From: a virus
Lineage: Duplodnaviria; Caudoviricetes
Strand: one strand, 5' to 3'
Length of the DNA: 53,918 bases
IMG/VR virus record: IMGVR_UViG_3300047554_000854
Location: 1-53,918 of that record
Shown piece by piece: positions 9,927-43,834 of this stretch. Positions within the stretch are counted from its first letter, which is position 1; every line of letters starts with the position of its first letter. The position numbers were made by a program, and so were the translations under genes. The notes under the pieces were generated by a model that searched no databases, was not told the DNA's origin, and saw nothing but the letters and a program-made list of their open reading frames with translations.

Positions 9927-10200
9927 GCCTCCCCCACAAGAACCCGATAGGGATTGAGCAACCGAGGAGTTTCCGTCCCCTTTCACCTCACCTGCTCTCC
10001 CTGTCGGTCAGAGAACCCCCGAGATTTCCTTCCCATTTCTCTCGGGGGTTTTCGCTTACCCCCGAGCCTGTATTCGTTTTTTCCTGAAGGCGGCAAGCAA
10101 CTTCTCATTAGTGTTGGAAAGTTTTACTGAAGGGGGTTGTTGACAACTTCGCACTAGTGGTGTAAGGTCTAGGTAAGGACGAAACGAAAGGACGGCAAGC

Positions 10201-10602
10201 GTGATTGACACAATGCCATTCCCATACCTCAACGAGTATGACCTAAACATCTGGATAGATGATGACGGATACTTACGAGCTAGTGCTTACCAACTCTGCC
10301 TTGATAAATCTATTGGGGTGGACGAACACGGAGAGCCTACCTACCAGCCTACGAACTACGGCTGTTCTGACGCATTTACTTTGGTCTGTATCCACGAACA
10401 CGAATACATTGGGATTGACAGGGACGAACTATACGCTCGCCTTGATGATGAGTGGGACACTATTACAGGGTTCTTGTCTGACCCTCGTGAGTGGAAGTCA
10501 GACTTCCCCGAGTTCTACGAGTTGGTCTGTGACGCAATCAAAGAGGAACTTATGGACGAGTTCGGAAACCTGAAGTATTACGAGGCTTGCCAACACGCCT
10601 AA
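10201..10602 (+). CDS. Hypothetical protein
   Basis: Promoter TTGACA(10140)/TAAGGT(10163), RBS GAAAGGA. Confidence 0.75.
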   Translation: MIDTMPFPYLNEYDLNIWIDDDGYLRASAYQLCLDKSIGVDEHGEPTYQPTNYGCSDAFTLVCIHEHEYIGIDRDELYARLDDEWDTITGFLSDPREWKSDFPEFYELVCDAIKEELMDEFGNLKYYEACQHA

Positions 10603-12434: not shown

Positions 12435-12809
12435 ATGGCAACTGCTATCAAGACAGCTGGACAGACAGCACAGGCAACACAGGCAGAGGCAGAGGTTCGT
12501 ATCTCTCCCAAAGCCCAGAAAGCGGTAAAGGCTCTCGCCTCTGCTCACGAGCAGGAGAAAGTCATTGACGCAATCATCAAGGAAAGTCGTGAGGCTATCC
12601 TCGCTGAACTCGGCAACGACACCAGCAAGTTTGGTGTGGACGCACGAGGCAAGCGTCTAGTCAAGGTTCAGGTCGTAATGCCCAAAGACCCTACTCGCTA
12701 CGACACAGCAGAGTTGGTCAAGTTCCTTGCCAAGACCCAGCCAGAAATCTTGGCTATGTTCAAGGCAGAGGACGCTAAGGCGACCACACGAGTTCTGACC
12801 CTCAACTAG
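12435..12809 (+). CDS. Hypothetical protein, paralog of 19626 and 32504
   Basis: Ala/Thr-rich N-terminus, helix ending ILAELG, D...L....PE motif. Confidence 0.8.
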   Translation: MATAIKTAGQTAQATQAEAEVRISPKAQKAVKALASAHEQEKVIDAIIKESREAILAELGNDTSKFGVDARGKRLVKVQVVMPKDPTRYDTAELVKFLAKTQPEILAMFKAEDAKATTRVLTLN

Positions 12810-13026
12810 GGTCAGACCCGAGGGGCGACAGAGAAACCCCCCTTTCGCTCTGTCGCCTCTCCCCAAAGCAAACGCTCTCTGGATAGATACTGCTACCTCT
12901 ATCCAGAGGGCGTTTCTTTTCACTCGGGCTGTATTCGTTTTTTCCCACGCCGAGTGTGCGAACGCCACGACTTTTGATTAGTGATTGGTTGTTGCGAAAT
13001 GTCTTAGGGTCTGGTAAGGTTTAGGT

Positions 13027-17100: not shown

Positions 17101-17418
17101 ATGAAAGAACTACCAATCTGCCCGAAGTGTTCGGGCTTTATTCCAAACAACGAAACCCCTGGGGCTTACTCTGGGGCTATCTCACGAGTAGATAACAAGA
17201 CTGAGATTTGCTCATCTTGCGGCACACAGGAAGCCCTAGACGCTTTCTTCGGCGAGCGAAACGAAGTAGAGCAAGCAGAAGACGAACTCTGGAACGCAAT
17301 CTTGAACTTCGCTAACAACACCGACACAACGCAATCCAGCGCACTTGCCGAAGATGTAAGCACGGCAATCATCAACCTAAAAAATGTTGTTCACCTAAGC
17401 AGAAAGGCAGGTGTCTAA
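17101..17418 (+). CDS. Zinc-ribbon hypothetical protein
   Basis: CPKC...GAISRVDNKTEICSSCG; RBS GAAAGGG. Confidence 0.75.
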   Translation: MKELPICPKCSGFIPNNETPGAYSGAISRVDNKTEICSSCGTQEALDAFFGERNEVEQAEDELWNAILNFANNTDTTQSSALAEDVSTAIINLKNVVHLSRKAGV

Positions 17419-17765
17419 TGGGAAACAGGTCTTCCATTGTTGTTGAGAGCGAGCGTTTCAAAGCGCCGATTACTCTCTATGGTCACTGGTCAGGCGCGGA
17501 AAACTTGGCGAGCGTGGCGAGCGTATTAGAGCGCACGGGCAGGGTAGGCGACCCGTCTTATCTCACGGCGCAACTCTTCTACGAGTTTGCCGTAGTGCGT
17601 GGCAAGTATGACGGCGAGTTGTCTTTCGGGATTGACGCTTTCGGCGGAACGCCAGACGAAGTAGATAAATGGATGGATGTGCCGACCATTGTAGTCAATG
17701 CCGATAACGGCACTTGGCGTTGGGCGATACCGCCAGAGCCAGCGGAAGAAGTCGTATTCGGGTAA
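17418..17765 (+). CDS. Hypothetical protein
   Basis: MGNRS...LYGHWSG; TAATG coupling. Confidence 0.8.
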   Translation: MGNRSSIVVESERFKAPITLYGHWSGAENLASVASVLERTGRVGDPSYLTAQLFYEFAVVRGKYDGELSFGIDAFGGTPDEVDKWMDVPTIVVNADNGTWRWAIPPEPAEEVVFG

Positions 17766-17979
17766 CCCCCTTTCCCCGAATACGAGTGGCGTGAGTTATC
17801 CGCCAAAACAGAACGGCAACCTTATCCCCTTTCGGTTGCCGTTTTGTTTTACCCTGTGGCGTATTCGTTTTTTCCTTACGCCGACAGATAACTTCTCATT
17901 AGTGTTGCGAAGTTGCGTAATGACGGCTCGCTATGGTAAACTCTTGGTATGGCGAAAGGCTCGCCAGAAAGGGACACAG

Positions 17980-24983: not shown

Positions 24984-25232
24984 ATGACTAACGCAGTATT
25001 CGTTCTCACCGCCACCTCGCAGGGCGAGCGTGGACAGGCAGGACACAAGAAGGTCTACGAGATTATCGTAGAAGGCAACTGGGTAACTCTACGCTGGGGC
25101 AAGGCGGAAGAGATGACCCGACAGACGCAACGCAAGTGGTTCACGAACTCAAACCTCGCCCTCAACTTCGCACGAGAGAAGAAGTGGGCGAAGGTCGATA
25201 AGGGTTATGTAGTGGCTTACCAAGCACTCTAA
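24984..25232 (+). CDS. WGR-domain protein
   Basis: KVYEI....V.LRWGK......K.F....A......K..K..KGY. Confidence 0.7.
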   Translation: MTNAVFVLTATSQGERGQAGHKKVYEIIVEGNWVTLRWGKAEEMTRQTQRKWFTNSNLALNFAREKKWAKVDKGYVVAYQAL

Positions 25233-25467
25233 CCCCCGAAAGCCCAGCGGGGTTATTGCCCCCCTTTCGCCCCGCTGATGAGAAGCCCGCCAGTTCCCCC
25301 TACTGGCGGGTTTCGCTTTTCTCTGGACACTCAGGGCGTATTCGTTTTTTCCCTAGCGACACGCTTGGTCGTGGCGTGATTTGACTTGGCTTTGAAAATC
25401 CTGTAAGATTACTAATGTAATCAGGAAGCCAAGGGGGCGGAGGGTTACGGAAAGGGTAGGGGTTCCA

Positions 25468-26907: not shown

Positions 26908-27116
26908 AAGTGTAGCTACACTTTCAGCGAGAGCCTCCCGCCACGGCGGGGGGTTCTTGCGTTTTTCGGTTGCTGGTTAGTAATCGGAAAAAACGAATAC
27001 CTGAACCCCGCCCCGACACGCCGAGGATTAGGTGATTTGGGAAATCTATGGTAACCTGGTTATGTAACCAGGACGGCAGATAGCAAGAGGGTTACTTGAA
27101 AGGGGATAGAAGTCTT

Positions 27117-27479
27117 ATGACTACTATTCAAATCTCGGTTGAAGTTTCGGACGAGGTCATCGACCAGGTCATCGACTCGGCTGGCTACTACATTGACTAC
27201 TGGGCAACCAAAGGTCAGCAGGACACCGAGGCCAAGACCTATAAGGTCTGGCTGGACGAAGAGGCTCGTGAAGAGCGTGGCGAGAAGAGCGTAACGCTCA
27301 CCTACGCCGACCTCGCTCTCGCTGGCGAGAAGTTGCTCACGGGCAGGGTCAAGGTTCGCTCGGACATTCGTGAGGCTCTCTCCGCTGGGTTCATCGCTGG
27401 GGATGCTGGCTCCATTGACGGCGAGGTGGCCGATGTTGTGGTTCAGGTTGCTATCTTCGGGGACATTATCTTCGGTTAG
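27117..27479 (+). CDS. Hypothetical protein
   Basis: GAAAGGGG RBS; D...AD.VVQVAIFGDIIFG C-terminus. Confidence 0.8.
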   Translation: MTTIQISVEVSDEVIDQVIDSAGYYIDYWATKGQQDTEAKTYKVWLDEEAREERGEKSVTLTYADLALAGEKLLTGRVKVRSDIREALSAGFIAGDAGSIDGEVADVVVQVAIFGDIIFG

Positions 27480-28588: not shown

Positions 28589-28775
28589 TCGTCCATAGGC
28601 CGAAGTAAGCCCTTGCGGAAACGCAAGGGTTTTCTTTTGACTTCCACGGCGTATTCGTTTTTTCCGTAATCACGACACACAAAAATAGATAGCTAAATAA
28701 GTTGCGCTATCTGGCGTTTGTTTGGTAGAATCTAGGTAGCAACAAAAAACCAAACCAAACAAAGGGGCAAACAAA

Positions 28776-29084
28776 ATGGGAAACACAAACGCAGGAGTAG
28801 TAACTAAGGCTCTAAAAGCGAACGGCTTTGAGCAAGCGCAGTGGAACAAGGTCGGCGTAACTACTTGGAATGACGGCTTTATCACCGAGCGTGCTGGCAA
28901 CTTCAACAACTCGGTCGCGGTTAGCTGGTTGTTCGCTGGCTCTTACCGCACTCTCACCGCCGATGAAGTGGCAATCACCAAACAGAACCTAGCCGAAATG
29001 GCGATAACCCTAAACAAGCGTGGCTACGCAACAAAGATTATGGGCGGGAACGAGCCTTGGCTCTTGGTGAGCAAGTCCGCCTAA
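28776..29084 (+). CDS. Hypothetical protein
   Basis: AAAGGGG RBS. Confidence 0.8.
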   Translation: MGNTNAGVVTKALKANGFEQAQWNKVGVTTWNDGFITERAGNFNNSVAVSWLFAGSYRTLTADEVAITKQNLAEMAITLNKRGYATKIMGGNEPWLLVSKSA

Positions 29085-29862: not shown

Positions 29863-30290
29863 TGGCGAAACTTCTAGTGCTTCAAGGGCTACCCGCTAGT
29901 GGCAAGTCTACCTATGCTCGCGAGTTGCTGGCTTCGTATCCTGCGGGCTACGCTCTGCGGGTGAATAATGATGACCTAGCCACGATGCTATTTGGCACGG
30001 CGTTTGGTGGCGGAGAAAAGTCGGCGCAACTTCTAGGCAAAGTGCGTGCGGACTTGGTGCGTCAAGCGTTTCGCAATGGCTACGCTCTGGTGATTATGGA
30101 CAACACAAACCTAAACCCGAAGGCAGTCAAGGCGTTAGAGAAACTTGCGGAGAGTTGCGGGGCGGAGTTTGAGTTAGACAACTCATTTACTAGCGTGCCG
30201 ATTAGAGAGTGTCTGCGGAGAAATGCCACACGGGAAAATCCTGTTCCCGAAAAAGTCATTCTGGAAATGGCTCGCTTCATCGGGGACTAA
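29862..30290 (+). CDS. P-loop kinase, polynucleotide-kinase-like (AAA_33)
   Basis: GLPASGKST, DNTNL, CLRRNATRENPVPEKVI. Confidence 0.8.
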   Translation: MAKLLVLQGLPASGKSTYARELLASYPAGYALRVNNDDLATMLFGTAFGGGEKSAQLLGKVRADLVRQAFRNGYALVIMDNTNLNPKAVKALEKLAESCGAEFELDNSFTSVPIRECLRRNATRENPVPEKVILEMARFIGD

Positions 30291-30348
30291 TCACCAAAAC
30301 CAGAAACCTTTACAATAGAACCACACTAACAATAGAGAGTAGGTTGCT

Positions 30349-30543
30349 ATGGTTTGGATTCAAACGAACTTCACCGCAGAGTCTATGAACACGGGTCAGG
30401 CTAAGAAGCCTGCTGTTGCCGAGGTGAAGCCTGTTGTTGCCAAGAAAAAGGCAACCAAGGTTGAGCCAGTCGCTACACCCGTAGTCGCAGAACCCGAAGC
30501 CGTTGCTGTTGAGCCAGAGGTCGTTGAACCCGAAGCAGAGTAG
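30349..30543 (+). CDS. Low-complexity small protein
   Basis: Ala/Val/Pro/Glu/Lys-rich, terminator downstream. Confidence 0.6.
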   Translation: MVWIQTNFTAESMNTGQAKKPAVAEVKPVVAKKKATKVEPVATPVVAEPEAVAVEPEVVEPEAE

Positions 30544-30862
30544 TAGCAAGGCTTAGAAAATCCCCCGCTGAAAAGTTGGGGGATTTTTCTTTGCGGTGAG
30601 CGTATTCGTTTTTTCGCTATCATCTCACGGTAAACTTTCAACTAATAAAAAGTTTTGCGTTTGAACTTGACTTTTCGTTCTAGGGGTGGTAGACTGCTTT
30701 TAGCAGTCGTGGCAAGGCTCCCTCGGGATTGTCCGCCTCGCACCTGTCGGTTCTTTCAAAACTCCATACGCACGAGATTTCGCCCCCGAAAACTTCGGGG
30801 TTCTTCTGGTATCAACATAGACGGGCTAGCACCCATAACTGCTGTGAAAGGGGTTGATTTTT

Positions 30863-30973
30863 ATGGAAGATGATTTCTACGAACCTGACGAAAGTTGGTT
30901 TGACGCAGACGCTCTGGCTTCTGCGGGGTTTGGCACTGATGAAGATTACGGCTACTTTGGCGGTGATGAATAG
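30863..30973 (+). CDS. Small acidic protein, 36 aa (not in ORF track)
   Basis: GAAAGGGG RBS; DALASAGFGTDEDYGY. Confidence 0.7.
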   Translation: MEDDFYEPDESWFDADALASAGFGTDEDYGYFGGDE

Positions 30974-31157
30974 TTAGACCTCTCTTGTGCGTATGGGGTT
31001 ACGAAAGAACCTAGTTTTTTTGTGCGGTTGATGTATTCGTTTTTTCCGTATCGTGTGGGGACACGGCGAGTTTTGGCGTGATGGCTTGCTATTGTCTGCG
31101 GTATGTGATAGACTACTTGTGTAGTCAAATGGCTACCTAAATGAAAGGGCAGTAAAA

Positions 31158-31358
31158 ATGATTCACAGTCTAGTTGTCGAAATCGAACAGGCAAACGGAA
31201 ACACCTTGACCCCAATCTACGAGTGCCACGGCGCACGCAAGTTTGCCGAGTTTGTTGAGTGGCACGAGCAGAACCTAAGCGAGGGTTCTACGGCAGTGCT
31301 AAAAGGTTTCGACTACAACCAAGAAACCCCCGAAGTTGTTTGGACTATCAAGCGATAG
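31158..31358 (+). CDS. Hypothetical protein, paralog of 33555
   Basis: Shared PIYECH...FAEFV.WHE.NL...LKGFDYN. Confidence 0.8.
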   Translation: MIHSLVVEIEQANGNTLTPIYECHGARKFAEFVEWHEQNLSEGSTAVLKGFDYNQETPEVVWTIKR

Positions 31359-31564
31359 CCGAAAGCGAGAAGCCCCCTGCGAAAGCGGGGGGTTTCTTTT
31401 TTGTCTGCGGGTTAGTGCTAAGTTGCGGGGAAGCGTGCTGAAAAAACGAATACACTACACGGCAGCCAGACGACGCCTGGGGTGTGTCGATTTGCTTTGT
31501 GTCGGTGGTTCGTGGTAGGCTTAGGTCATAAGCCGAAAGGTTCGGCAGAAAGCAAAGGGACAAA

Positions 31565-31855
31565 ATGAAACTTCTAACTCAGGAAATCCGCAAGGCACTT
31601 CCAGCACTCTACTCGCAGGACGGACTAGGAACTAACCAAGTTGCCGTAGTCAAGTTCTTCGACCCTACGGGTTCTTGGACTTGGTATGCGAGCGAGTTTG
31701 ACGGCGAGGACTTGTTCTTCGGACTTGTGGACGGGTTCGAAAAGGAACTTGGCTACTTCTCGCTAAGCGAGTTGGAAAGCCTAGAACTTCCGTTTGGGCT
31801 ACGGATTGAGCGTGACCTACACTTCACGCCTAGACCAATCAGCGAGCTTCTCTAA
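31565..31855 (+). CDS. DUF2958-like protein
   Basis: [16 protein letters not shown]...[19 protein letters not shown]...IERD. Confidence 0.8.
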
Positions 31856-32026
31856 GCCAGCGAGCGAGCGACCGCCTAGCCGAAAGGTTGGGCGGTTTCT
31901 TGCGTGCGGGAGTGCGTATTCGTTTTTTCCGTTGCTCTCACCGCGACACGCTGGACACGGAGAGATGTAGCAAAATGTCTGCGGGGTATGGTAGGCTTGA
32001 CTTACAAGCCAGAGAAAGGGTAACAA

Positions 32027-32278
32027 ATGGCAAGCAGTATCGTAGTAGAGCAGAACCAGCAGACCGCTATGGCGTTTGTGCGTAGGTTGGTAGGCGGGGA
32101 CTTACTCGCCTATTTCCAGAGCGAGCAAGCAATCGCAAAGGCGTTTGCGGAGTGCGGGCGTAACACGGACATCCAGCGACTAACCACGAACTATGTCTGG
32201 GGTTCGTATGACCGAGCAAGCCACAATAAGCAAGCCCTAGAAGCCAAGTTGCGGGAAGTGTTCGGGCTACCCGCCTAG
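32027..32278 (+). CDS. Hypothetical protein
   Basis: GAAAGGG RBS. Confidence 0.75.
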   Translation: MASSIVVEQNQQTAMAFVRRLVGGDLLAYFQSEQAIAKAFAECGRNTDIQRLTTNYVWGSYDRASHNKQALEAKLREVFGLPA

Positions 32279-32503
32279 CCGAGCAGAACTAGCAGACCCC
32301 TAGCGAGAGTGCTAGGGGTTTTGCTTTATGCGGGTTAGTGCGAAGTTGCGGGTGTGTCTGCGGGTGTATTCGTTTTTTCCGTAGCGTGCGACACGGGCAA
32401 ACTTTTTGGCGTATGGATTTGACTTCACCGCCAAACTAAGGTAGGCTATGGGTATAGCCAAAAGGTTATAGCAATACACACCACTAGAAGCAAAGGGAAA
32501 CAA

Positions 32504-32824
32504 ATGACCACCAAAGTAGCAACCAAGACCCAGACCGCCACCACTTCGGTAGAACTTACCGCTAAGGGCGTGCGTGCGTTGAAGGCGTTCACGAAGGCAA
32601 AAGAAGCCGAAGCGAAGGCGAAGGCACTCAAAGCAAAGGCAGAAGCAATCCTGCGTGCGGAACTAGGCGAAGCAACTAAGGCGACCATTGAAGGCGTTGC
32701 GGTTGCGAGCGTAGTTGCGAGCGTGAACACTTCGTTTGACCGCGACCTAATGAAGGCGGTTTATCCAGAAGCCTTCGGTGCTTGCTTGAAGGCAACACCA
32801 TACACCTACATCAAGACCGCCTAG
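32504..32824 (+). CDS. Hypothetical protein, paralog of 12435 and 19626
   Basis: ILRAELG...FDRDLMKAVYPEAF. Confidence 0.8.
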   Translation: MTTKVATKTQTATTSVELTAKGVRALKAFTKAKEAEAKAKALKAKAEAILRAELGEATKATIEGVAVASVVASVNTSFDRDLMKAVYPEAFGACLKATPYTYIKTA

Positions 32825-32993
32825 CGGTTCGTGCGGTTCGCCCGCTAGCCCTTCGGGGTTAGCGGGTGTTCGTGCGTTTGCGGGTGTTCGTGCGTGCGTG
32901 CGGTGTATTCGTTTTTTCCGTATCGCAAACACGGCGAGCAACACGGCTGGGCTTGGACTTGACTTGGGCGAGCTTCGGGTGTAGGCTTTGAGT

Positions 32994-33134
32994 ATGGTGA
33001 ACATTACAAAGATTAGAAACACTTTTGGGCGAGTGCTTGCGGGCTTCGTCAAGCGTATCGGTAGCGTGGGCTTTACGGCTTGGAAGGCTTGCGAGTGGGC
33101 AAGTTTTCGACTACACCGCTGGGCGAGCAAGTGA
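32994..33134 (+). CDS. Small protein, 46 aa, leaderless (not in ORF track)
   Basis: TAGGCT -10 at 32982, ATG 32994, GTGA overlap with next gene. Confidence 0.55.
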   Translation: MVNITKIRNTFGRVLAGFVKRIGSVGFTAWKACEWASFRLHRWASK

Positions 33135-33328
33135 GTAACTTGGCGGGCGTTGCCTTCGTGCTTAGGTGCGTAGGTGGCGGGCTAGTCTTTATGTGGCTAG
33201 CGTCTTTCGTTATTGGCTATCAAGCCGATAGCGTGCGACCAATGTTTTTCTTTCTTGCGGTGGCGTTTTATTTCGTTGCTTGGCAAGTGAGCAAGGCAGA
33301 CACCGAAAGGCAAGACATCACGGATTAG
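33131..33328 (+). CDS. Small membrane protein
   Basis: Two hydrophobic segments. Confidence 0.55.
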   Translation: MSNLAGVAFVLRCVGGGLVFMWLASFVIGYQADSVRPMFFFLAVAFYFVAWQVSKADTERQDITD

Positions 33329-33349
33329 TCTGCGGTGCTATAATAGAAT

Positions 33350-33455
33350 CTCCCCTAGGCTTATCCCCTTTCGCCTAGGTGAGTAGAGTGCGGGAATGTT
33401 CGCCCCTTTCTCCCCGCGACTCCGAAAAAGGCTAGGCTTTTGTCTAGCCTTTTTT
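33350..33455 (+). ncRNA. Candidate ~105-nt sRNA with two CCCCUUUC loops
   Basis: Extended -10 TGcTATAAT (33336-33344), two hairpins, terminator 33425-33455. Confidence 0.7.
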
Positions 33456-33554
33456 GTTACCCTTTTGTTATCGTATTGACTTGACTTTTATGCGGTTAGG
33501 TGTTAGACTACTTATGTAGTCAAAAGGATTACACAAAACGAAAGGGCAACAAAA

Positions 33555-33758
33555 ATGGCAATCCACACTCTAAGCGTAGAAATCCACTACCACAACGGCG
33601 ACAAACTAAACCCAATCTACGAGTGCCACTCGGAAGAAAAGTTTGCTGAGTTTGTGGCTTGGCACGAAGCGAACTTGCCGATGAACACAACTACACTTCT
33701 AAAAGGTTTTGACTACAACAACTCGATTCCTGAAATCGTGCGGATAATCGTCAAGTAG
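33555..33758 (+). CDS. Hypothetical protein, paralog of 31158
   Basis: Same motifs as 31158. Confidence 0.8.
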   Translation: MAIHTLSVEIHYHNGDKLNPIYECHSEEKFAEFVAWHEANLPMNTTTLLKGFDYNNSIPEIVRIIVK

Positions 33759-33968
33759 TTAGGCAAGAAAAACCCTCGCTGAAAGGCGGGGGTTTTTTCT
33801 TTTGTCTGAACTTCTGATTAGTCTGCGGTTAGGCGTATTCGTTTTTTCACGAGTGCTTGGCGGGCGGGCGGGTGAGCGAGTGCGTTACTATTTTGTTATC
33901 TTTGTAACTTGACTTTATGCGGTGAGAGTGTTAGGCTTATAGCAAGCCTAATGAAAGGGGTAAAAGAA

Positions 33969-34190
33969 ATGTTAGTCAAAGTTATTCCGCGTTGTAACAA
34001 CCTAGTAACCGACACAACTAAGGCGGGCAATGTTGCTTGTTGCGGTAGGGTCGCTTGGTTCGGGATTACCCTAGCGAGTGGCGTAATCCATAACGCTTGC
34101 GTGGACTGCGTGGCAAAACGCTTGGCTATTCTTGCGGATAGCCTAGACACCGCTAGCGTTGTGTTCTACATAAAGGACAAAAAAGATTAG
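33969..34190 (+). CDS. Hypothetical Cys-containing protein
   Basis: GAAAGGGG RBS, ATG 33969. Confidence 0.7.
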   Translation: MLVKVIPRCNNLVTDTTKAGNVACCGRVAWFGITLASGVIHNACVDCVAKRLAILADSLDTASVVFYIKDKKD

Positions 34191-34273
34191 TCAAGTCGCT
34201 TGACTTTTCTAGTCTGCGGTGATAGAATAAACTTAGTTGCTACTTGGCAACTTGATTAGAGAAAAGGGAACAA

Positions 34274-34552
34274 ATGATTTTCAATCGTGACTACTTCGAA
34301 AAGGGCGAGGTTGCGGGCGGGCTAGTTGTAAGGGTAAAAGATTACGCTGGCTTAGTCGTAGACACCCGAACCTTTATCGGCGAACCTGCGGGCAAGTATG
34401 TTCTAACGCTTGCTTGGAGTGGCGGGCGAGAAACCAAACACTTCGACACCTTCGCAAAAGCCTTGGCTATGTCTGGCGGGTATTGGGCAAGGCAAGCAAT
34501 CTGGCACGAAACTTCGGAAGGCAAAAGAAAGCGAGTGCTTCGCTGGCAGTAG
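34274..34552 (+). CDS. Hypothetical protein
   Basis: GAAAAGGG RBS, own promoter and terminator. Confidence 0.75.
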   Translation: MIFNRDYFEKGEVAGGLVVRVKDYAGLVVDTRTFIGEPAGKYVLTLAWSGGRETKHFDTFAKALAMSGGYWARQAIWHETSEGKRKRVLRWQ

Positions 34553-34822
34553 CCTAGCAAATAGCAACCCGTCAAGTTGAACACTTGGCGGGTTTGCTTT
34601 TGTCTGCGGTGAAAGCGTGAAAGAAAGTTTTAGTTTCTTTCACAACTTCGCATTAGTGTTAGCGTGAAGAAATCGTTTGGACACAAACGAGTTTGCTCTG
34701 CGGTAAGCGTTCAGAGTGTTATCGTTTTGTTATAAATGTTTGCTAGTATAACTTGACTTTTTTTGTCTGCGGTGTTAGACTTACCCCATAAGTCGAAAGG
34801 TTCGGCTTATGAAAGGGAAGAA

Positions 34823-35023
34823 ATGAACAAGTTAGTTATCGTGAAATCGGTGGCAATCGTCAAGGCAGTCGCTAAGGGCGTGGCAGTCGCAACCGAAAAG
34901 AAAGCAACTACAAACCGAACCGCTAAGGTTGCTAACGAGGTGGCTAAGTGCGTTGCTGACTTGGGACTAAACCCCGTCAAGAGTATTGAGAGAGTGAACA
35001 AACTAATCGAAACCCTGCGGTAA
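34823..35023 (+). CDS. Small basic protein
   Basis: GAAAGGG RBS, ATG 34823. Confidence 0.7.
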   Translation: MNKLVIVKSVAIVKAVAKGVAVATEKKATTNRTAKVANEVAKCVADLGLNPVKSIERVNKLIETLR

Positions 35024-35238
35024 TCGTTTAGACAAACCCCGCTTAGTCGAAAGGCTAGGCGGGTTTTGTTTTGCTCGCTTGCTTGCTTTGTCTGCGGTGG
35101 CTAGTGTATTCGTTTTTTCTGTATGCTCGGCGGGCGGGCTAGTAAGTAGAAAGTTTTTTATTTAGGTGCTTGACTTTCTGCGGTGAGAGTGTTAGACTAC
35201 TAGTGTAGTCAAAAGGCTACTAAACGAAAGGGTAAAGA

Positions 35239-35451
35239 ATGAACAACAAGGCGAGAGAAACAAGGGCGGGCTTTGCGTTAGGTTCGCTAGGCTTGGCTAT
35301 GTTTTTAGGTGCTGATGCTTGGGCTAATCGCTTCACTTCGGACTATTATCACGAACAAGCAACACTAACAATCTTGGGCTTCGTTGCGGTGAGTGCTTCG
35401 CTATTCACTTGGAACGCTATCCAATACGCCCGACACCTTCGCAACAAGTAA
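35239..35451 (+). CDS. Small membrane protein
   Basis: Two hydrophobic segments; GAAAGGG RBS. Confidence 0.75.
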   Translation: MNNKARETRAGFALGSLGLAMFLGADAWANRFTSDYYHEQATLTILGFVAVSASLFTWNAIQYARHLRNK

Positions 35452-35499
35452 CGCCTAGCGAGTGAACGCCTAGCCAAAAGGCTAGGCGTTTGCTTTTGT

Positions 35500-36380
35500 C
35501 TGCGGTGAGTGCTTCGCTTGACTTTGTTAGTTGCTTGCTTCTTTGTAGTTGCTTCGCTAGGCGTGCTTGCTTCTTTGTCTGCGGTAATGCTTTGCTAGGT
35601 TACTTTGCTTCTTGCTTGCTTGCCTAGGCTAGTGCTTGGGCAGTTGCTTCTTGCTTAGTGCTTAGTTTGTAGTGTTATCACTTTGTTATCTAATACACTT
35701 GACTTTTATCTAACTACTGATAGAATAGTGATAGGCAGACTTCTTAGTGCGGTAAGCGTCTAGGCTTCGCTTCTTTGTGCTTTGCTTCTTGCTTCTAACT
35801 TCTTTGCTTTGTTTGTTAGTTGCTTGCTTTGCTTCGCTTTGCTTAGTGCTTTGCTTCTTTGTGCGGTGCTTGCTTCTAGGCGTATGCCTACACACCTACA
35901 CACCTACACACCTAGGCACTCATACACCTACACACCTAGGCACTTGCTTAGTGCTTAGTGCTACACACCTATACACCTACACGCCTAAGCTTTGCGGTAA
36001 TGCTTCACCCTACTCGCCTAGTGTTTGCGGTAATAGTGCTTAGAGTATCTAGCAACGCCTAGGCTTCACCTAACTAACTAGGTTGCTTCACTAGTGGCTT
36101 GGCTAGTGGCTTGGCTTGACTAACACTAACTATTGTTATACACTACTAGGCTACTAGGCTACACTCATACACTACTATTATACCTAGGCAATAGTGATTA
36201 GTCAAGTCTATTTCTGCGGTGATTACTTCTAGGCGTATGCCTAGCCTAGCCTAGTGTTAGGTGATACACCTAGGCACTCACCTACTTACCTACTCACCTA
36301 CTCACCTACTCACCTAGTCATTGACTTACTCACTCACCTACTCACTCACTCAACTACTCAACTACTCAACTACTCAACTA
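35500..36380. repeat. Low-complexity non-coding tract with short tandem repeats
   Basis: TTGCTT-rich block, then CCTACACA, ACTCACCT and ACTCAACT 8-mers; many CTAG. Confidence 0.8.
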
Positions 36381-39956: not shown

Positions 39957-41345
39957 ATGGGTAAATCAATCATGGAGCAGCTTGCTCTCCTCTCGCCAGA
40001 AGAGCAGGCTGAAGCTCTACGCGGTATGGACCCAGACCAACTCCTGTGGGACTGGTCTGTATGGGGTCGCCCAGAACAACAGGCTCCCGAAGGTGACTGG
40101 AACGTATGGCTCGTACTTGCGGGTCGTGGTTTTGGTAAAACCCGTCTTGCATCTGAGTGGGTTCGCGAACAAGCTAAATACACAAATACGGGCCAACGCC
40201 GTTTCGGTCTAGTTGCCCGTACCGCTGGTGACGTGCGTGACGTTATCGTTGAAGGTGAATCTGGAATCCTTAACGTTACGCCTCCTAGCGAGCGTCCGCT
40301 CTACGAGCCGTCTAAGCGACGCCTAACCTGGCCCAACGGAAACGTAGCCTCTCTCTTTACCGCTGACGAGCCTGACTCGCTCCGTGGTCCTCAGTTCACT
40401 CACGCCTGGGGCGATGAGATTGCAGCCTGGCGACAGACTCCTGACGCTGCAGGTATGACCGCGTTCGACAACTTGCGTGTTGGTACTCGTCTAGGAGCCA
40501 ACCCTAAAATTCTTGTTACCACCACCCCGAAACGAACTCCACTGCTTTACAAGCTCATTGAAGAGTCGAAAGGTGGTGGCGTTGCAATCACCCGTGGTTC
40601 GACCATGGACAACGCTGGTAACCTTTCTGGCGCATACCTCGACACAATGCTTGGCGTTTACGAGGGAACCTCTCTCGCCCGCCAGGAACTTTATGGTGAA
40701 ATGCTCGAGGCCATGGAAGGCGCAATGTGGACGGAAGAGCTTATCGAGCGTAGCCGTCACTCGTACATGCCTCAGAGTGCTCCGATGCGTGTAATCGGCG
40801 TTGACCCTAGCGTTGCCGAAAACCCACGAGACGAATGTGGAATTGTTGTTGTTGGCTCGACTTCGGAGTACGACCTCTACAAGCGTCAAGCCTGGGTTTT
40901 GGAGGACGCATCGGTTCTCGGCTCGCCAGACGTTTGGGCACGCAAAGTTGTTGAGATGGCTCGTAAGTGGGGTTGCCCTGTTGTAGCCGAAGTAAACCAG
41001 GGTGGAGCCTTGGTTCGAAACGCCATCAACACAATCGACCCAACCATCAAGGTTCTTGAAGTCCACTCAAAGCAGGGTAAGCAGCTCCGCGCTGAGCCAA
41101 TCACCATGGCATATGAGCAAGACCGCGTTCACCACGTTGGAAAGAGCATGGTTGACCTCGAAACTCAGATGATTACGTGGATTCCAGGCGAGGGAAAGTC
41201 TCCAGACCGCGTCGACGCACTGGTTCACGCCCTCACTGCACTACTTATTAAGCCTCCAGCAGGCTTCTCGGGCGGAAAAATCCGTGCTAGAAGCCTTGCT
41301 GCACGCCGTTTACCAGGTTCTAGCTCAACTTTTAGGGTTCGATAG
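39957..41345 (+). CDS. terL: Terminase large subunit
   Basis: AGRGFGKT Walker A, LRGPQF..AWGDE Walker B, TTTP coupling motif, IGVDP and SPDRVDALV nuclease motifs. Confidence 0.95.
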   Translation: MGKSIMEQLALLSPEEQAEALRGMDPDQLLWDWSVWGRPEQQAPEGDWNVWLVLAGRGFGKTRLASEWVREQAKYTNTGQRRFGLVARTAGDVRDVIVEGESGILNVTPPSERPLYEPSKRRLTWPNGNVASLFTADEPDSLRGPQFTHAWGDEIAAWRQTPDAAGMTAFDNLRVGTRLGANPKILVTTTPKRTPLLYKLIEESKGGGVAITRGSTMDNAGNLSGAYLDTMLGVYEGTSLARQELYGEMLEAMEGAMWTEELIERSRHSYMPQSAPMRVIGVDPSVAENPRDECGIVVVGSTSEYDLYKRQAWVLEDASVLGSPDVWARKVVEMARKWGCPVVAEVNQGGALVRNAINTIDPTIKVLEVHSKQGKQLRAEPITMAYEQDRVHHVGKSMVDLETQMITWIPGEGKSPDRVDALVHALTALLIKPPAGFSGGKIRARSLAARRLPGSSSTFRVR

Positions 41346-42028: not shown

Positions 42029-43834
42029 TTGGGAATTTTTAAACGTGATGGTGGCAATCAGCCGCGCAAGCAATCACCTAACGGCGTTCGTGCTACCAGC
42101 CCTGGCATGAGACCTACTCAGCCTCCTGTATTTCGCGATTCTTTTGGAATTGTCTACGCTACCCCTGCTGCTTTCAACGAACCACGCCCTCTAACTGCTG
42201 CTGCAGCTCAAATTAAGATTGGCGACCAGGGCGAGGCCCTAATTTTCAAGTCTCGACGTCAATCGGCGTCTTCTGCATGGCAGAAGGAGGCTTGGGAGTA
42301 CTACGACGCGATTGGAGAAATCAAATATGCGTTTAACCTCGTTGCTTCAGTTGTATCACGTATCCGACTCTATGCTGCTAGCGTTGATGACCCAGCAGAG
42401 GCTCCTGTTACGGTACGTAAATCAGAGGTAGTCAAGCCAGAGCTTGCTGCCGCAGCTGAGCGAGCCCTTGCTCGCCTAGATAGTGCCTACGGAGGCCAGT
42501 CAGGTTTGCTCAAAGACTGTGCTCTAAACCTTCAGGTTACTGGCGAGTGCTATCTTGTTCAGGTTCCAGAGCGTATTGGCTCTGGCTTGCCTGAGTCTTG
42601 GGATATCCGCTCGACTGACGAGCTTCAGGTTGATGCCAAGGGTAACTACATCATTAACCCACGCCGCGAGGTTGGTAATGGTGGAGCCAGCATCATGTCT
42701 GGTGGTGGCGCAGAGGTCATCAGACTCCCTAAGGACGCTTTTATCGGCCGTATGTGGAAAGCACACCCACGCTACTCCCAGGAGTCTGACAGCTCGCTAC
42801 GTGGCCTCCTAGACCTATGTGCGGAGCTCTTGCTCCTCAACCGCACCTTCCGTGCGACCGCCCGCTCTCGCCTCAACGCTGGTGCTCTTTACTTGCCAGA
42901 CGGCCTCTCGGTTGCAGCTACCGCTGACCCTGACTACCCTTACGACGAAGAGGGAAACTACAACGAGCAGTACAACGCTGAAGAGGCTGCTGACGATTTC
43001 GAAGACCAGCTCATCGATGCGATGACCACTCCTATCAAGGACGAGGACTCGGCATCTGCAGTTGTTCCACTTATCATCCGTGGTCCTGCTGAACTTGGCG
43101 ACAAGATTAAGCAGTTCAAGTTTGAGCGTTCATTCGACCCTGCTCTAGCCGAGCGTTCAGAGCGTGTCCTAGAACGCATCATGCAGGGCCTAGACGTTCC
43201 TAAGGACATCGTTTCGGGTCTGGCTAACGTCAAGTACTCAAATGCCCTCCAGATTGACGAGAGCCTCTACAAGGCCCACATTGAGCCACTGATGTTGCTC
43301 ATTGCTGACGCCATCACAGTTGTCTACTTGCGCCCATACCTTATCGCCAACGGCTATCCAGAGGCAGAGGTAAACCGCCTTGTTATCTGGTACGACCCAA
43401 GCCAGGTTGCTACTCGCAACGACCGCGCTGCAGACGCAGACGCAGGCTTCAACAACATGGCGGTATCCTACGAAACTTGGAGACGTGCTCACGGCTTCTC
43501 GGACCAGGACGCTCCTACTCCTATGGAGTTGGCTCTTCGTCTTGTAATCAATAAGGGTGCTATCACCCCTGAACTTACCGAAGCAATGCTTGGTGCTGTT
43601 GCTCCAGAAATCATGGAGAAGATTAAGGGCATCCAGCAGGCTAACTCGGTAGCACCAGTTCCGCCAGAGGTCGAGGCAGCTCTCGCCCAGGCGGCTCCAA
43701 CTGGACCAATTAACCCAACCGAATCAGCGGAAGGTCAGGAAGTTACCGCACCCGAGGGACTTCTAGCTGAGCCATCTGCCGCTCCAACCGAGGCTGCTCC
43801 TCCAGGGCTAGCCGAACCAACCCCTGAAGGATAA
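42029..43834 (+). CDS. Portal protein
   Basis: Position after terL, 601 aa, WQKEAWEYYDAIGEIKYA...GECYL pattern of actinophage portals. Confidence 0.8.
   Translation: MGIFKRDGGNQPRKQSPNGVRATSPGMRPTQPPVFRDSFGIVYATPAAFNEPRPLTAAAAQIKIGDQGEALIFKSRRQSASSAWQKEAWEYYDAIGEIKYAFNLVASVVSRIRLYAASVDDPAEAPVTVRKSEVVKPELAAAAERALARLDSAYGGQSGLLKDCALNLQVTGECYLVQVPERIGSGLPESWDIRSTDELQVDAKGNYIINPRREVGNGGASIMSGGGAEVIRLPKDAFIGRMWKAHPRYSQESDSSLRGLLDLCAELLLLNRTFRATARSRLNAGALYLPDGLSVAATADPDYPYDEEGNYNEQYNAEEAADDFEDQLIDAMTTPIKDEDSASAVVPLIIRGPAELGDKIKQFKFERSFDPALAERSERVLERIMQGLDVPKDIVSGLANVKYSNALQIDESLYKAHIEPLMLLIADAITVVYLRPYLIANGYPEAEVNRLVIWYDPSQVATRNDRAADADAGFNNMAVSYETWRRAHGFSDQDAPTPMELALRLVINKGAITPELTEAMLGAVAPEIMEKIKGIQQANSVAPVPPEVEAALAQAAPTGPINPTESAEGQEVTAPEGLLAEPSAAPTEAAPPGLAEPTPEG

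What the first reader, a model, noticed from the sequence alone, without database searches (positions are those of the whole stretch)
33336..33455. Stand-alone sRNA gene with two anti-RBS loops
Seen: consensus extended -10 TGcTATAAT, hairpin 1 with loop TTATCCCCTTTC, hairpin 2 with loop containing TGTTCGCCCCTTTC, then an intrinsic terminator, with no ORF and no box A. Loop 1 can pair over 12 nt (one G-U) with the leader GAAAGGGGATAG at 27098. Loop 2 can pair with AAAGGGGCAAACA at 28761 (one mismatch). Inference: a dedicated trans-acting translational repressor of the cassette genes.
Basis: partly seen in the sequence, partly recalled or inferred. Interest (0 to 1): 0.85.

Follow-up and report, generated by a model that had tools for sequence, protein, structure and literature searches.

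The report
Phage RNA tail with anti-ribosome-site loops
An uncultured lake phage that probably infects actinobacteria carries a folded non-coding RNA of about 105 bases whose two open loops mirror the ribosome-binding sites of the phage's own small early genes, so it probably dampens their translation, although no transcript has been seen.

Summary
These are TGCTATAAT (33336-33344), hairpin 1 (loop TTATCCCCTTTC), hairpin 2 (loop AATGTTCGCCCCTTTCTC) and a 15-bp terminator (33423-33456). The fold is far better than shuffles (z -6.55), and both CCCCUUUC cores are predicted to be unpaired (0.94 and 0.97).

It is not clearly a stand-alone gene. It is the 3' tail of a leaderless two-ORF cassette (32994-33328) and supplies that cassette's only terminator. 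The closest relative keeps hairpin 1 and the terminator but has no TGNTATAAT.

It is one member of a family. 6 of 8 CCCCTTT sites on the + strand sit in hairpin loops, against 0 of 15 on the - strand. Related phages keep the loops while the stems change by compensating substitutions.

The core is the exact complement of GAAAGGGG. G-run ribosome sites are confined to the cassette array (21 of 67 rough gene calls, against 0 of 21 outside).

No Rfam family matches; 6C, RsaE and the cuckoo RNAs are analogues, not relatives.

The scan has already found related C-loop RNAs on other DNA (e1-5969426, e1-6140230).

Most likely reading (about 0.5): a C-loop anti-SD riboregulator. I found no expression data.

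The parts
33336..33344 (+). Extended -10-like motif TGCTATAAT. It is a possible internal promoter that would start a free RNA of about 105 nt near 33350. It has no -35 and no box A.
   Evidence: Sequence. It is the only TGNTATAAT in the window. It is unchanged in two metagenome contigs that span the region. It is absent from the homologue in L007. Function is not shown.
33350..33383 (+). Hairpin 1, with stem CUC.CCUAGGC / GCCUAGG.GAG and the 12-nt loop UUAUCCCCUUUC (33361-33372).
   Evidence: Fold. Loop core unpaired with probability 0.94. In L007 the loop is identical and two stem pairs are swapped in a compensating way. All 10 pairs of this helix show changes on both sides in alignment A5 (that alignment was fitted to the model).
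33386..33422 (+). Hairpin 2, with the 18-nt loop AAUGUUCGCCCCUUUCUC (33395-33412).
   Evidence: Fold. Core unpaired with probability 0.97 in the free RNA and 0.70 when folded together with the upstream message. The second hairpin is C-rich in L009 and L030 but not in L007.
33423..33456 (+). Intrinsic terminator with 15 pairs, a 4-nt loop and a T-run. It is the only terminator of the upstream cassette.
   Evidence: Fold. The scan lists its core at 33434-33450. It is homologous in L007 and L009, with compensating changes in L009.
32959..33328 (+). Upstream cassette whose 3' UTR is the element. It comprises -35 TTGACT (32959-32964), TGTAGGCT (32980-32987), a leaderless ATG (32994), ORF A (32994-33134) and ORF B, a predicted small hydrophobic protein (my reading of its sequence), coupled through a GTGA overlap (33131-33328).
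   Evidence: Sequence and ORF list. The same layout occurs in L007. Pfam finds nothing. The leaderless start is inferred from promoter spacing.
17749..17856 (+). Paralogous module. A hairpin with loop UAACCCCCUUUC lies at the stop codon of gene 17418-17765, followed by a small hairpin and then a terminator whose loop UUAUCCCCUUUC is identical to loop 1.
   Evidence: z -7.19. Model R1 scores it 33.6 bits, E 1.8e-5.
12820..12861 (+). 3'-UTR hairpin with a 14-bp stem and loop AAACCCCCCUUUCG, after ORF 12435-12809.
   Evidence: z -5.02. An orthologue in G001 keeps CCCCTTTC.
25245..25277 (+). 3'-UTR hairpin with loop UAUUGCCCCCCUUUC, after gene 24984-25232.
   Evidence: In the G001 orthologue the loop is identical at 15 of 15 positions and the stem is changed with compensation.
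27098..27109 (+). Leader GAAAGGGGATAG of gene 27117-27479. It is the best computed partner of loop 1.
   Evidence: Duplex of -17.8 kcal/mol with 12 pairs. It is no better than random-flank controls (124 of 300).
28761..28773 (+). Leader AAAGGGGCAAACA of gene 28776-29084.
   Evidence: Duplex of -17.5 kcal/mol, ranked 4th for loop 2. It is no better than the controls (219 of 300).

Best explanation
The element is a conserved structured RNA module of about 105-110 nt, made of two hairpins and an intrinsic terminator. It displays two unpaired CCCCUUUC loops. It is transcribed at least as the 3' tail of the leaderless cassette 32994-33328. In this phage it may also be transcribed on its own from TGCTATAAT.

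It belongs to a family of hairpins with C-run loops placed after stop codons in this group of freshwater phages. The group is probably actinobacterial.

Most likely mechanism (inferred): the C-run loops pair with the G-run Shine-Dalgarno sites (GAAAGGGG) that only the phage's small-gene cassettes use. This would block 30S binding and turn down translation of those early messages. Genes outside the array, with GGAG or AAGG sites, would be left alone.

Shown: the structure, loop exposure in silico, loop conservation with stem covariation, and the distribution of site types. Inferred: that the RNA accumulates, that it pairs in trans, and that pairing represses.
For: - Structure: z -6.55; loops open at 0.94 and 0.97.
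- Loop placement: 6 of 8 + strand CCCCTTT sites lie in loops of stems of 6 bp or more, against 0 of 15 on the - strand (Fisher p 0.0003). Of the 34 other orderings of the same letters, none had more than 2 loop placements except the overlapping CCCTTTC.
- Conservation, closest relative: L007 keeps loop 1 exactly, with two compensated stem pairs.
- Conservation, L009 and L030: both keep the layout of hairpin 1, a C-rich hairpin 2 and a terminator.
- Conservation, second group: L021, L026, L097 and G003 keep invariant loops AGUUAUCCCCCUUUC and CCCCCC, and 12 of 42 pairs are compensated.
- Conservation, G001 orthologue of 25261: the loop is identical at 15 of 15 positions over a changed stem.
- Model-based alignment of 12 matches: 95.3% of cells are paired, 21 of 25 pairs have changes on both sides, and 0 of 500 shuffles reach this (the alignment was fitted to the model and mixes orthologues with paralogues).
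- Targets: 14 of 15 + strand AAAGGGG sites lie 4-11 nt before an ATG ORF. GGGG-type sites occur in 21 of 67 rough gene calls inside the array and 0 of 21 outside (p 0.002).
- Computed duplexes: GAAAGGGG with the loops gives -12.2 and -13.5 kcal/mol. GAAAGGAG(G) with the loops gives only -7.0 and -8.4.
- The upstream message has no SD of its own, so a purely self-directed role is unlikely.
- Precedent: 6C sRNA C-rich loops bind G-rich ribosome sites without a chaperone (PMC6486639, passages read).
Against: - No RNA data. No RNA holder was listed.
- The promoter motif is at chance frequency and is not conserved in L007.
- Complementarity beyond the 8-nt core is at chance level for both loops.
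- Across genomes the length of the C-run in loops does not track the length of the G-run in ribosome sites. G007 has C9 and C11 loops but almost no G-run sites in the 20 kb sampled.
- Model R1 finds the module in only 4 of 9 held relatives' records at E <= 0.01, and two of those four records (G000, G001) hold sequences the model was built from. MAG DSL-LC01, the closest GenBank record, has none in its first 50 kb.
- In the closest relative, hairpin 2 has no C-run.
- The gene calls behind the site statistics come from my own rough heuristic.
- The host 16S tail used was recalled, not fetched.
Confidence: 0.5

Rival explanations
1. The module is a purely cis-acting 3'-UTR element. It terminates and stabilises the upstream message. 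Alternatively, on read-through transcripts it masks the ribosome site of the next gene (33555, leader GAAAGGGC). It has no free sRNA form and no trans targets.
For: In every relative the module follows a stop codon and provides the cassette terminator. L007 has no promoter. The scan's earlier follow-ups on other phages favoured pairing between a message's tail and its head.
Against: A stabiliser would not need an invariant loop sequence over changing stems. The upstream message has no SD to mask. Only about 4 of roughly 45 cassettes carry such hairpins, so this is not general insulation. The next gene has its own promoter 25 nt after the terminator.
Confidence: 0.2
2. The C-run loops act on host messages, not phage ones. 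The module would be a functional mimic of actinobacterial C-loop sRNAs such as 6C, which target G-rich ribosome sites of genes such as dnaB and panD. The phage would use it to arrest host functions.
For: The design matches 6C: C-rich loops, chaperone-free G-C pairing and G-rich ribosome sites (PMC6486639). Portal relatives are phages of Microbacterium, Arthrobacter, Gordonia and Mycobacterium. G007 has long C-runs but few G-run phage sites.
Against: There is no sequence or structure match to the 6C model. The conserved UUUC next to the C-run fits the phage's GAAAGGGG site exactly. No host genome was available to test.
Confidence: 0.12
3. The loops are protein- or factor-binding sites, not pairing sites. 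They differ from the recalled 3' tail of 16S rRNA by a single U-to-C change. They could act as a decoy for a factor that recognises that tail, or as a site for a phage RNA-binding protein.
For: The whole loop, including the non-complementary UUAU, recurs exactly in four hairpins with unrelated stems: window 33361 and 17822, L007, and within L094 12843.
Against: No candidate protein was found, and the flanking ORFs have no Pfam match. The motif is the exact complement of an abundant functional site in the same genome, which pairing explains more simply.
Confidence: 0.1
4. The element has no dedicated function. It is an ordinary terminator region whose loops resemble anti-SD by chance or by a DNA-level process such as cassette shuffling or ssDNA hairpins.
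For: The array is highly recombinogenic, with 44 box A copies. The promoter motif and the long pairings are at chance level.
Against: Loop placement is strongly non-random and strand-specific. Loops are conserved over compensated stems in orthologues. The motif is not part of box A or of the promoter modules.
Confidence: 0.06

Closest known systems
Actinobacterial 6C / B11 sRNA (Rfam RF01066; Mai et al. 2019, PMC6486639, passages read)
   Same: It is a small RNA with hairpins whose C-rich loops pair with G-rich ribosome sites and repress translation without Hfq or ProQ. It works in the same presumed host phylum.
   Different: No match to the 6C covariance model in the window, in a relative's copy or in 5 phage records. 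The window's loops have 4 C followed by UUUC, not 6 C. The element is phage-borne, sits in a 3' UTR and occurs in several dispersed copies.
Cuckoo RNAs / alpha-r14 and alpha-r7 of Alphaproteobacteria (Rfam ar14, ar7; Reinkensmeier and Giegerich 2015, PMC4615179, passages read)
   Same: They consist of 2-4 adjacent hairpins that each carry the same anti-SD-like loop motif. The stems are highly variable through compensating changes, and the loop is the only conserved sequence.
   Different: The loop motif there is CCUCCUCCC, not CCCCUUUC. A relative's copy (L097) scores only 30.3 bits on ar7 (cut-off 60) and 22.3 on ar14 (cut-off 58.8). The window's copy hits neither. The host phylum differs and those RNAs are chromosomal.
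RsaE/RoxS and RNAIII-type C-rich-loop sRNAs of Firmicutes (Rfam RF01820; RNAIII role as cited in PMC4615179)
   Same: UCCC or C-rich motifs in hairpin loops, including the terminator loop, pair with ribosome sites.
   Different: RsaE scores 13.7 bits against a cut-off of 79. There is no sequence relationship.
icaR mRNA 5'-3' UTR pairing in Staphylococcus aureus (PMC3868564, abstract read)
   Same: An anti-SD motif (UCCCCUG) in a 3' UTR pairs with an SD region and blocks initiation.
   Different: There the target is the SD of the same message. Here the carrying message appears leaderless, so it has no SD to mask.
3'-UTR-derived sRNAs with an internal promoter (a general class, recalled)
   Same: The RNA shares its terminator with the upstream gene, and a possible promoter lies inside or just after the coding region.
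   Different: The promoter is unproven and is absent in the closest relative. No transcript data exist.

Membership tests
Rfam 6C (RF01066) | Covariance-model score at or above the gathering cut-off (47 bits) | tested here: not met
   No hit at gathering level in the whole window. 6C is absent even at E <= 10 in 33300-33480 and in L097 8470-8640. 0 of 5 phage records match (in that call's control genomes no hit passed the cut-off either, so that test is weak).
Rfam 6C (RF01066) | Two hairpin loops, each with a run of about six C (recalled definition) | tested here: not met
   The window's loops hold runs of 4 C. Relatives have 5 to 11.
Cuckoo / ar14 (and ar7) | CCUCCUCCC motif in every hairpin loop (PMC4615179) | tested here: not met
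   The loops read UUAUCCCCUUUC and AAUGUUCGCCCCUUUCUC.
Cuckoo / ar14 (and ar7) | Covariance-model score at or above the cut-off | tested here: not met
   The window has no ar14 or ar7 hit at E <= 10. The relative L097 scores 30.3 against 60 on ar7 and 22.3 against 58.8 on ar14.
RsaE/RoxS (RF01820) | Covariance-model score at or above the cut-off (79 bits) | tested here: not met
   13.7 bits, E 4.9.
Intrinsic (Rho-independent) terminator | G+C-rich stem-loop followed by a U-run on the transcribed strand | tested here: met
   15-bp stem and T-run at 33423-33456.
3'-UTR-embedded regulatory RNA | Lies between a stop codon and that gene's terminator on the same strand | tested here: met
   The stop codon is at 33326-33328. 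No strong terminator-like site lies before 33423; the scan lists only a weak 7-pair site at 33181-33201, inside the ORF. Relatives have the same layout.
Stand-alone sRNA gene | Own promoter giving a discrete transcript | tested here: inconclusive
   TGCTATAAT is present once, at chance frequency, with no -35. It is not conserved in L007. No RNA runs were listed.
Stand-alone sRNA gene | Observed RNA of the predicted size | not testable with these tools
   No RNA holder was listed for the stretch.
icaR-type 5'-3' UTR self-pairing | Anti-SD motif of the 3' UTR complementary to the SD of the same message | tested here: not met
   The carrying message starts at an ATG 6 nt after its -10, and its second ORF is coupled by a GTGA overlap. 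No SD is present (the transcript start is inferred).

The most novel reading that the evidence does not exclude
The phage runs a private translation circuit. Its early one-gene cassettes use a G-run dialect of the Shine-Dalgarno site (GAAAGGGG). That site still reaches the ribosome through a G-U wobble, but it pairs perfectly with phage-made CCCCUUUC loops. The loops are carried on several message tails and on this two-loop RNA. As these stable RNAs build up they switch off the whole early set. The genes outside the array (structural and other), which use GGAG or AAGG sites, are untouched. This would be an RNA-only counterpart of the protein-based early shut-off of T4 (RegA/RegB, recalled).
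Probability: 0.3. Interest if true: 0.8.

Novelty: new variant of a known kind. Interest (0 to 1): 0.58.

Why it matters
Phage-encoded riboregulators are few, and in two literature searches I found none described for phages of actinobacteria.

If the loops act as proposed, a large and widespread family of freshwater phages times its early genes with RNA loops matched to a phage-specific ribosome-site dialect. 476 terminase relatives were found in IMG/VR. That would be a simple, portable and orthogonal translation switch.

It would also give a function to the many 3'-UTR hairpins with conserved loops that this scan keeps finding in uncultured phages.

The claim can be tested with reporter fusions and compensating mutants in a harmless actinobacterial laboratory host.

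Tried and rejected
- blastn of 32800-34200 against 50,697 GenBank phage records found no match.
- The Rfam gathering-level scan of the whole window gave 0 hits. Sub-threshold hits in the window are driven by the terminator.
- blastn-short and nhmmer with the element against 80 terminase-anchored loci found only L007.
- The IMG/VR pattern scan gave 1 stretch, on the same contig as L007.
- The IMG/VR pattern scan gave 10 stretches, 9 of them unrelated.
One search sorted them into 67 RBS-like sites on the opposite strand, 38 others and 11 hairpins. Only 2 of the 11 hairpins belong to this phage family.
- The MAFFT alignment of 18 single hairpins (A1) did not keep the stems in register, so I did not use it for a model.
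- The four-way alignment A2 misaligned L030. I rebuilt the model from three sequences with a hand-written structure.
- Specific long loop-leader pairings are at chance level. The same holds for the 9977 loop (154 of 300).
- Matched run-length covariation between C-run loops and G-run ribosome sites across six genomes was not seen.
- A type I toxin-antitoxin reading (small hydrophobic protein plus adjacent RNA) has no antisense or SD basis. The long-sequence duplex computed is not meaningful.
- Self-pairing of tail to head was rejected because the message is leaderless.
- Host identification by one genome-contig scan with the NlpC/P60 protein gave 1 irrelevant hit.
- Pfam on 10 nearby ORFs found nothing for the flanking genes.
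- No RNA holder was listed for 30000-36000.
- Metagenome contigs X3 and X7 span 32900-33700 with 8 and 11 differences, none inside 33290-33476. About 1.6 would be expected in the element by my arithmetic, so this is only a weak sign of constraint.
- L006 and L007 are not held for whole-record searches.
- Supplements of the papers were not opened.

Full report
WHAT THE WINDOW IS

The window is an entire IMG/VR virus record of 53,918 bases that CheckV rates 33% complete. All large ORFs lie on the + strand. A large terminase is at 39957-41345 and a portal protein at 42029-43834.

The terminase has 476 relatives in IMG/VR, mostly on contigs of 90-155 kb; the best 80 loci were kept. The portal's closest named relatives are the metagenome-assembled 'Actinomycetia phage DSL-LC01' (74% identity) and phages of Microbacterium, Arthrobacter, Gordonia and Mycobacterium. 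DSL-LC01 has no cultured host (PMC10611076, search listing only). An actinobacterial host is therefore an inference.

Between about 5.7 and 36.5 kb lies an array of small one-gene cassettes. It is marked by a 15-mer, GTATTCGTTTTTTCC, with 44 copies at up to 3 mismatches against 1.4 expected. The cassettes have TTGACT-N17-TAGACT-type promoters and strong terminators.

THE OBSERVATION

- TGCTATAAT at 33336-33344.
- Hairpin 1 at 33350-33383, with loop TTATCCCCTTTC.
- Hairpin 2 at 33386-33422, with loop AATGTTCGCCCCTTTCTC.
- A 15-bp terminator with a T-run at 33423-33456.

The 107-nt RNA folds at -48.9 kcal/mol, against -26.7 +/- 3.4 for shuffles (z -6.55, 0 of 200 as good). The two CCCCUUUC cores are unpaired with probability 0.94 and 0.97. 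There is no box A between 32905 and 33835 and no credible ORF. TGNTATAAT occurs only here in the window, but one or two are expected by chance, so the motif by itself proves nothing.

CONTEXT: A 3' TAIL, NOT CLEARLY A SEPARATE GENE

Upstream lies a cassette with -35 TTGACT (32959-32964) and TGTAGGCT (32980-32987). An ATG follows only 6 nt later (32994), so the message is probably leaderless. ORF A is 32994-33134. ORF B is a predicted small hydrophobic protein (my reading of its sequence), starts in a GTGA overlap and runs 33131-33328. No strong terminator-like site lies between its stop codon and 33423; the only one listed before that, at 33181-33201, is a weak 7-pair site inside the ORF. The element is therefore that message's 3' UTR and its terminator.

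The only close homologue found is on IMGVR_UViG_3300012665_000925 (L007 3918-4032). It has the same upstream gene pair and the same loop 1. Its hairpin 1 stem has two pairs swapped in a compensating way (CCTAGGC/GCCTAGG becomes CCTAGCG/CGCTAGG), and its terminator is homologous. Its stop codon lies 9 nt before hairpin 1, it has no TGNTATAAT, and its hairpin 2 has no C-run.

An independent ~105-nt transcript is therefore possible in this phage but is not a conserved property.

A FAMILY, NOT A SINGLETON

On the + strand, CCCCTTT occurs 8 times, and 6 of these sit in loops of stems of 6 bp or more:
- 12839
- 17767
- 17826 (its loop is identical to loop 1, and the hairpin is itself a terminator)
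- 25261
- 33365
- 33403

On the - strand, 0 of 15 occurrences do so (Fisher p 0.0003). Other orderings of the same seven letters show at most 2 loop placements, apart from the overlapping CCCTTTC. All six lie just after stop codons. The stretch 17745-17860 folds into a second module that runs from a C-loop hairpin to a C-loop terminator (z -7.19).

RELATIVES

In the 80 terminase-anchored loci (1,078,184 bases), 6 of 34 gene-strand CCCCTTT sites are in hairpin loops, against 1 of 35 on the other strand.

Positional counterparts 5-9 kb upstream of the terminase, and in further regions fetched from G001, G002, G003 and G007, show the same design. Each follows a stop codon and ends in the cassette terminator:
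- L009 (G001): hairpin 1 loop UUGUUUCCCCCUUUCC, hairpin 2 loop with CCCCC, and a terminator homologous to the window's.
- L030 (G003): loops UUAUCCCCCUUU and CCCCCU.
- L021, L026, L097 and a second G003 copy: an extra 5' hairpin, then loop AGUUAUCCCCCUUUC, then a terminator with a CCCCCC loop. In RNAalifold on these four, 12 of 42 pairs carry compensating changes while both loops stay invariant.
- G007: loops with runs of 9 and 11 C.

A covariance model was built from the window, L007 and L009. It recovers L030 (36 bits), window 17749-17856 (33.6 bits), and L097, L021 and L026 (29-33 bits) among 90 sources totalling 1.32 Mb.

On the resulting alignment, 95.3% of cells pair and 21 of 25 pairs have changes on both sides. 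No shuffle of 500 reaches this, and slid controls give 36-55% paired. That alignment is fitted to the model and mixes orthologues with paralogues, so the orthologous comparisons are the cleaner evidence. The G001 orthologue of hairpin 25261 has an identical 15-nt loop over a changed, compensated stem. The element at 9977 is identical over about 70 nt while the coding flank diverges.

The distribution is patchy. The model matches 4 of 9 held records at E <= 0.01, and two of those four (G000, G001) hold sequences it was built from. The first 50 kb of DSL-LC01 hold no CCCCTTT, no AAAGGGG and no box A.

WHAT THE LOOPS COULD BIND

AAAGGGG occurs 23 times against 7.5 expected. Of the 15 copies on the + strand, 14 lie 4-11 nt before an ATG that opens an ORF of 30 aa or more.

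I used rough gene calls of my own: 88 ORFs, with starts chosen by SD strength. By these, GGGG-type sites occur in 21 of 67 genes inside the array and 0 of 21 outside. Sites with a run of at least three G (the AAAGGG-type and GGGG-type classes) occur in 37 of 67 inside and 0 of 21 outside (p 0.002 and 1e-6).

Nearest-neighbour energies favour the loops for GAAAGGGG (-12.2 and -13.5 kcal/mol). They disfavour the loops for GAAAGGAG(G) (-7.0 and -8.4). A recalled 16S tail does the opposite (-10.6, against -11.5 and -15.0). The loop core thus fits the cassette dialect specifically.

The named long pairings do not add evidence. With random flanks around the fixed core, an equally good leader is found in 124 of 300 trials for loop 1 and 219 of 300 for loop 2. 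Across six genomes, C-run length in the loops does not track G-run length in the ribosome sites, and G007 is an outright exception in the 20 kb sampled.

POPULATION AND EXPRESSION DATA

No RNA run was listed. Contigs from two other studies span 32900-33700 with 8 and 11 differences, none within 33290-33476. This is weak, since only about 1.6 changes would be expected in the element.

COMPARISON WITH WHAT IS KNOWN

No Rfam family reaches its cut-off.
- In permissive mode the window's best hits rest on the terminator (STnc390, 26.5 bits). RsaE scores 13.7 against a cut-off of 79, and 6C is absent.
- A relative's copy scores 30.3 against 60 on ar7 and 22.3 against 58.8 on ar14. These are alphaproteobacterial RNAs with anti-SD-like loops.
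- 6C is not found in 5 phage records.

Functionally the design matches three known cases:
- 6C: C-rich loops bind G-rich ribosome sites without a chaperone (PMC6486639, passages).
- Cuckoo RNAs: the same loop motif sits on variable stems (PMC4615179, passages).
- The icaR 3' UTR: an anti-SD motif lies in a 3' UTR (PMC3868564, abstract).

Two literature searches returned no phage example of this kind. The scan itself has met the relatives' twin C-loop RNA and the L007-like copy before on other DNA.

VERDICT

The element is a real, conserved RNA module with C-run anti-SD loops. It most likely pairs with the cassette-type ribosome sites in trans. It sits in a message tail, its independent promoter is unproven, and its named targets are not special.

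I rate it a new variant of a known kind (C-rich-loop anti-SD riboregulators), with interest 0.58.

Noticed in passing
window 5717-36514: The 15-mer GTATTCGTTTTTTCC occurs 44 times at up to 3 mismatches (36 of them exact), against 1.4 expected. Most copies are on the + strand, after terminators and before cassette promoters. G001 has at least 41 copies of its 13-nt core in 40 kb. G002, G007 and DSL-LC01 have none in the parts examined.
   Followed up: partly
window 32959-33328 and L007 3530-3916: The cassette upstream of the element appears leaderless, with its ATG 6 nt after the -10. It holds two small ORFs joined by a GTGA start/stop overlap; the second looks like a small hydrophobic protein. 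The layout is conserved in the closest relative. Pfam finds nothing.
   Followed up: partly
window, whole + strand: The canonical anti-SD heptamer CCTCCTT is absent from the + strand of all 53.9 kb, and several related orderings are also at zero. The variant CCCCTTT occurs 8 times.
   Followed up: no
window 9955-10000 and L094 about 10180-10260: A weak hairpin after the 598-aa gene shows the loop GUUUCCGUCCCCUUUCA. About 70 nt around it are identical in G001 although the coding flank diverges. Its long match to the leaders of 6470 and 6987 was not above my random-flank control (154 of 300).
   Followed up: partly
L098 5150-5270 (- strand; G007): A two-hairpin module whose loops hold runs of 9 and 11 C followed by UUUC. 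The surrounding 20 kb uses AAGGAG-type rather than G-run ribosome sites.
   Followed up: partly
L106, L143, L182, L185, L213 (and L102, L109, L123, L138, L139 with one stem change); L150; L169, L208: Other IMG/VR contigs carry hairpins displaying GTTATCCCCCTTTC in the loop, and I did not check whether they are related to this phage. One recurs in contigs of about 82-153 kb from a single data set, and one is a terminator. Similar anti-SD loop hairpins may therefore exist in other phage groups.
   Followed up: no
window 33481-33758: The cassette just downstream has a promoter at 33481-33509 and gene 33555-33758. It has no box A and starts only 25 nt after the element's terminator, unlike most cassettes of the array.
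   Followed up: no
L097 8470-8640: The relatives' three-hairpin version gives a sub-threshold but non-trivial hit to Rfam ar7 (30.3 bits, E 1e-4 for that small search). The aligned loops are UUAUCCCCCU in both. This is probably convergence on an anti-SD loop.
   Followed up: partly
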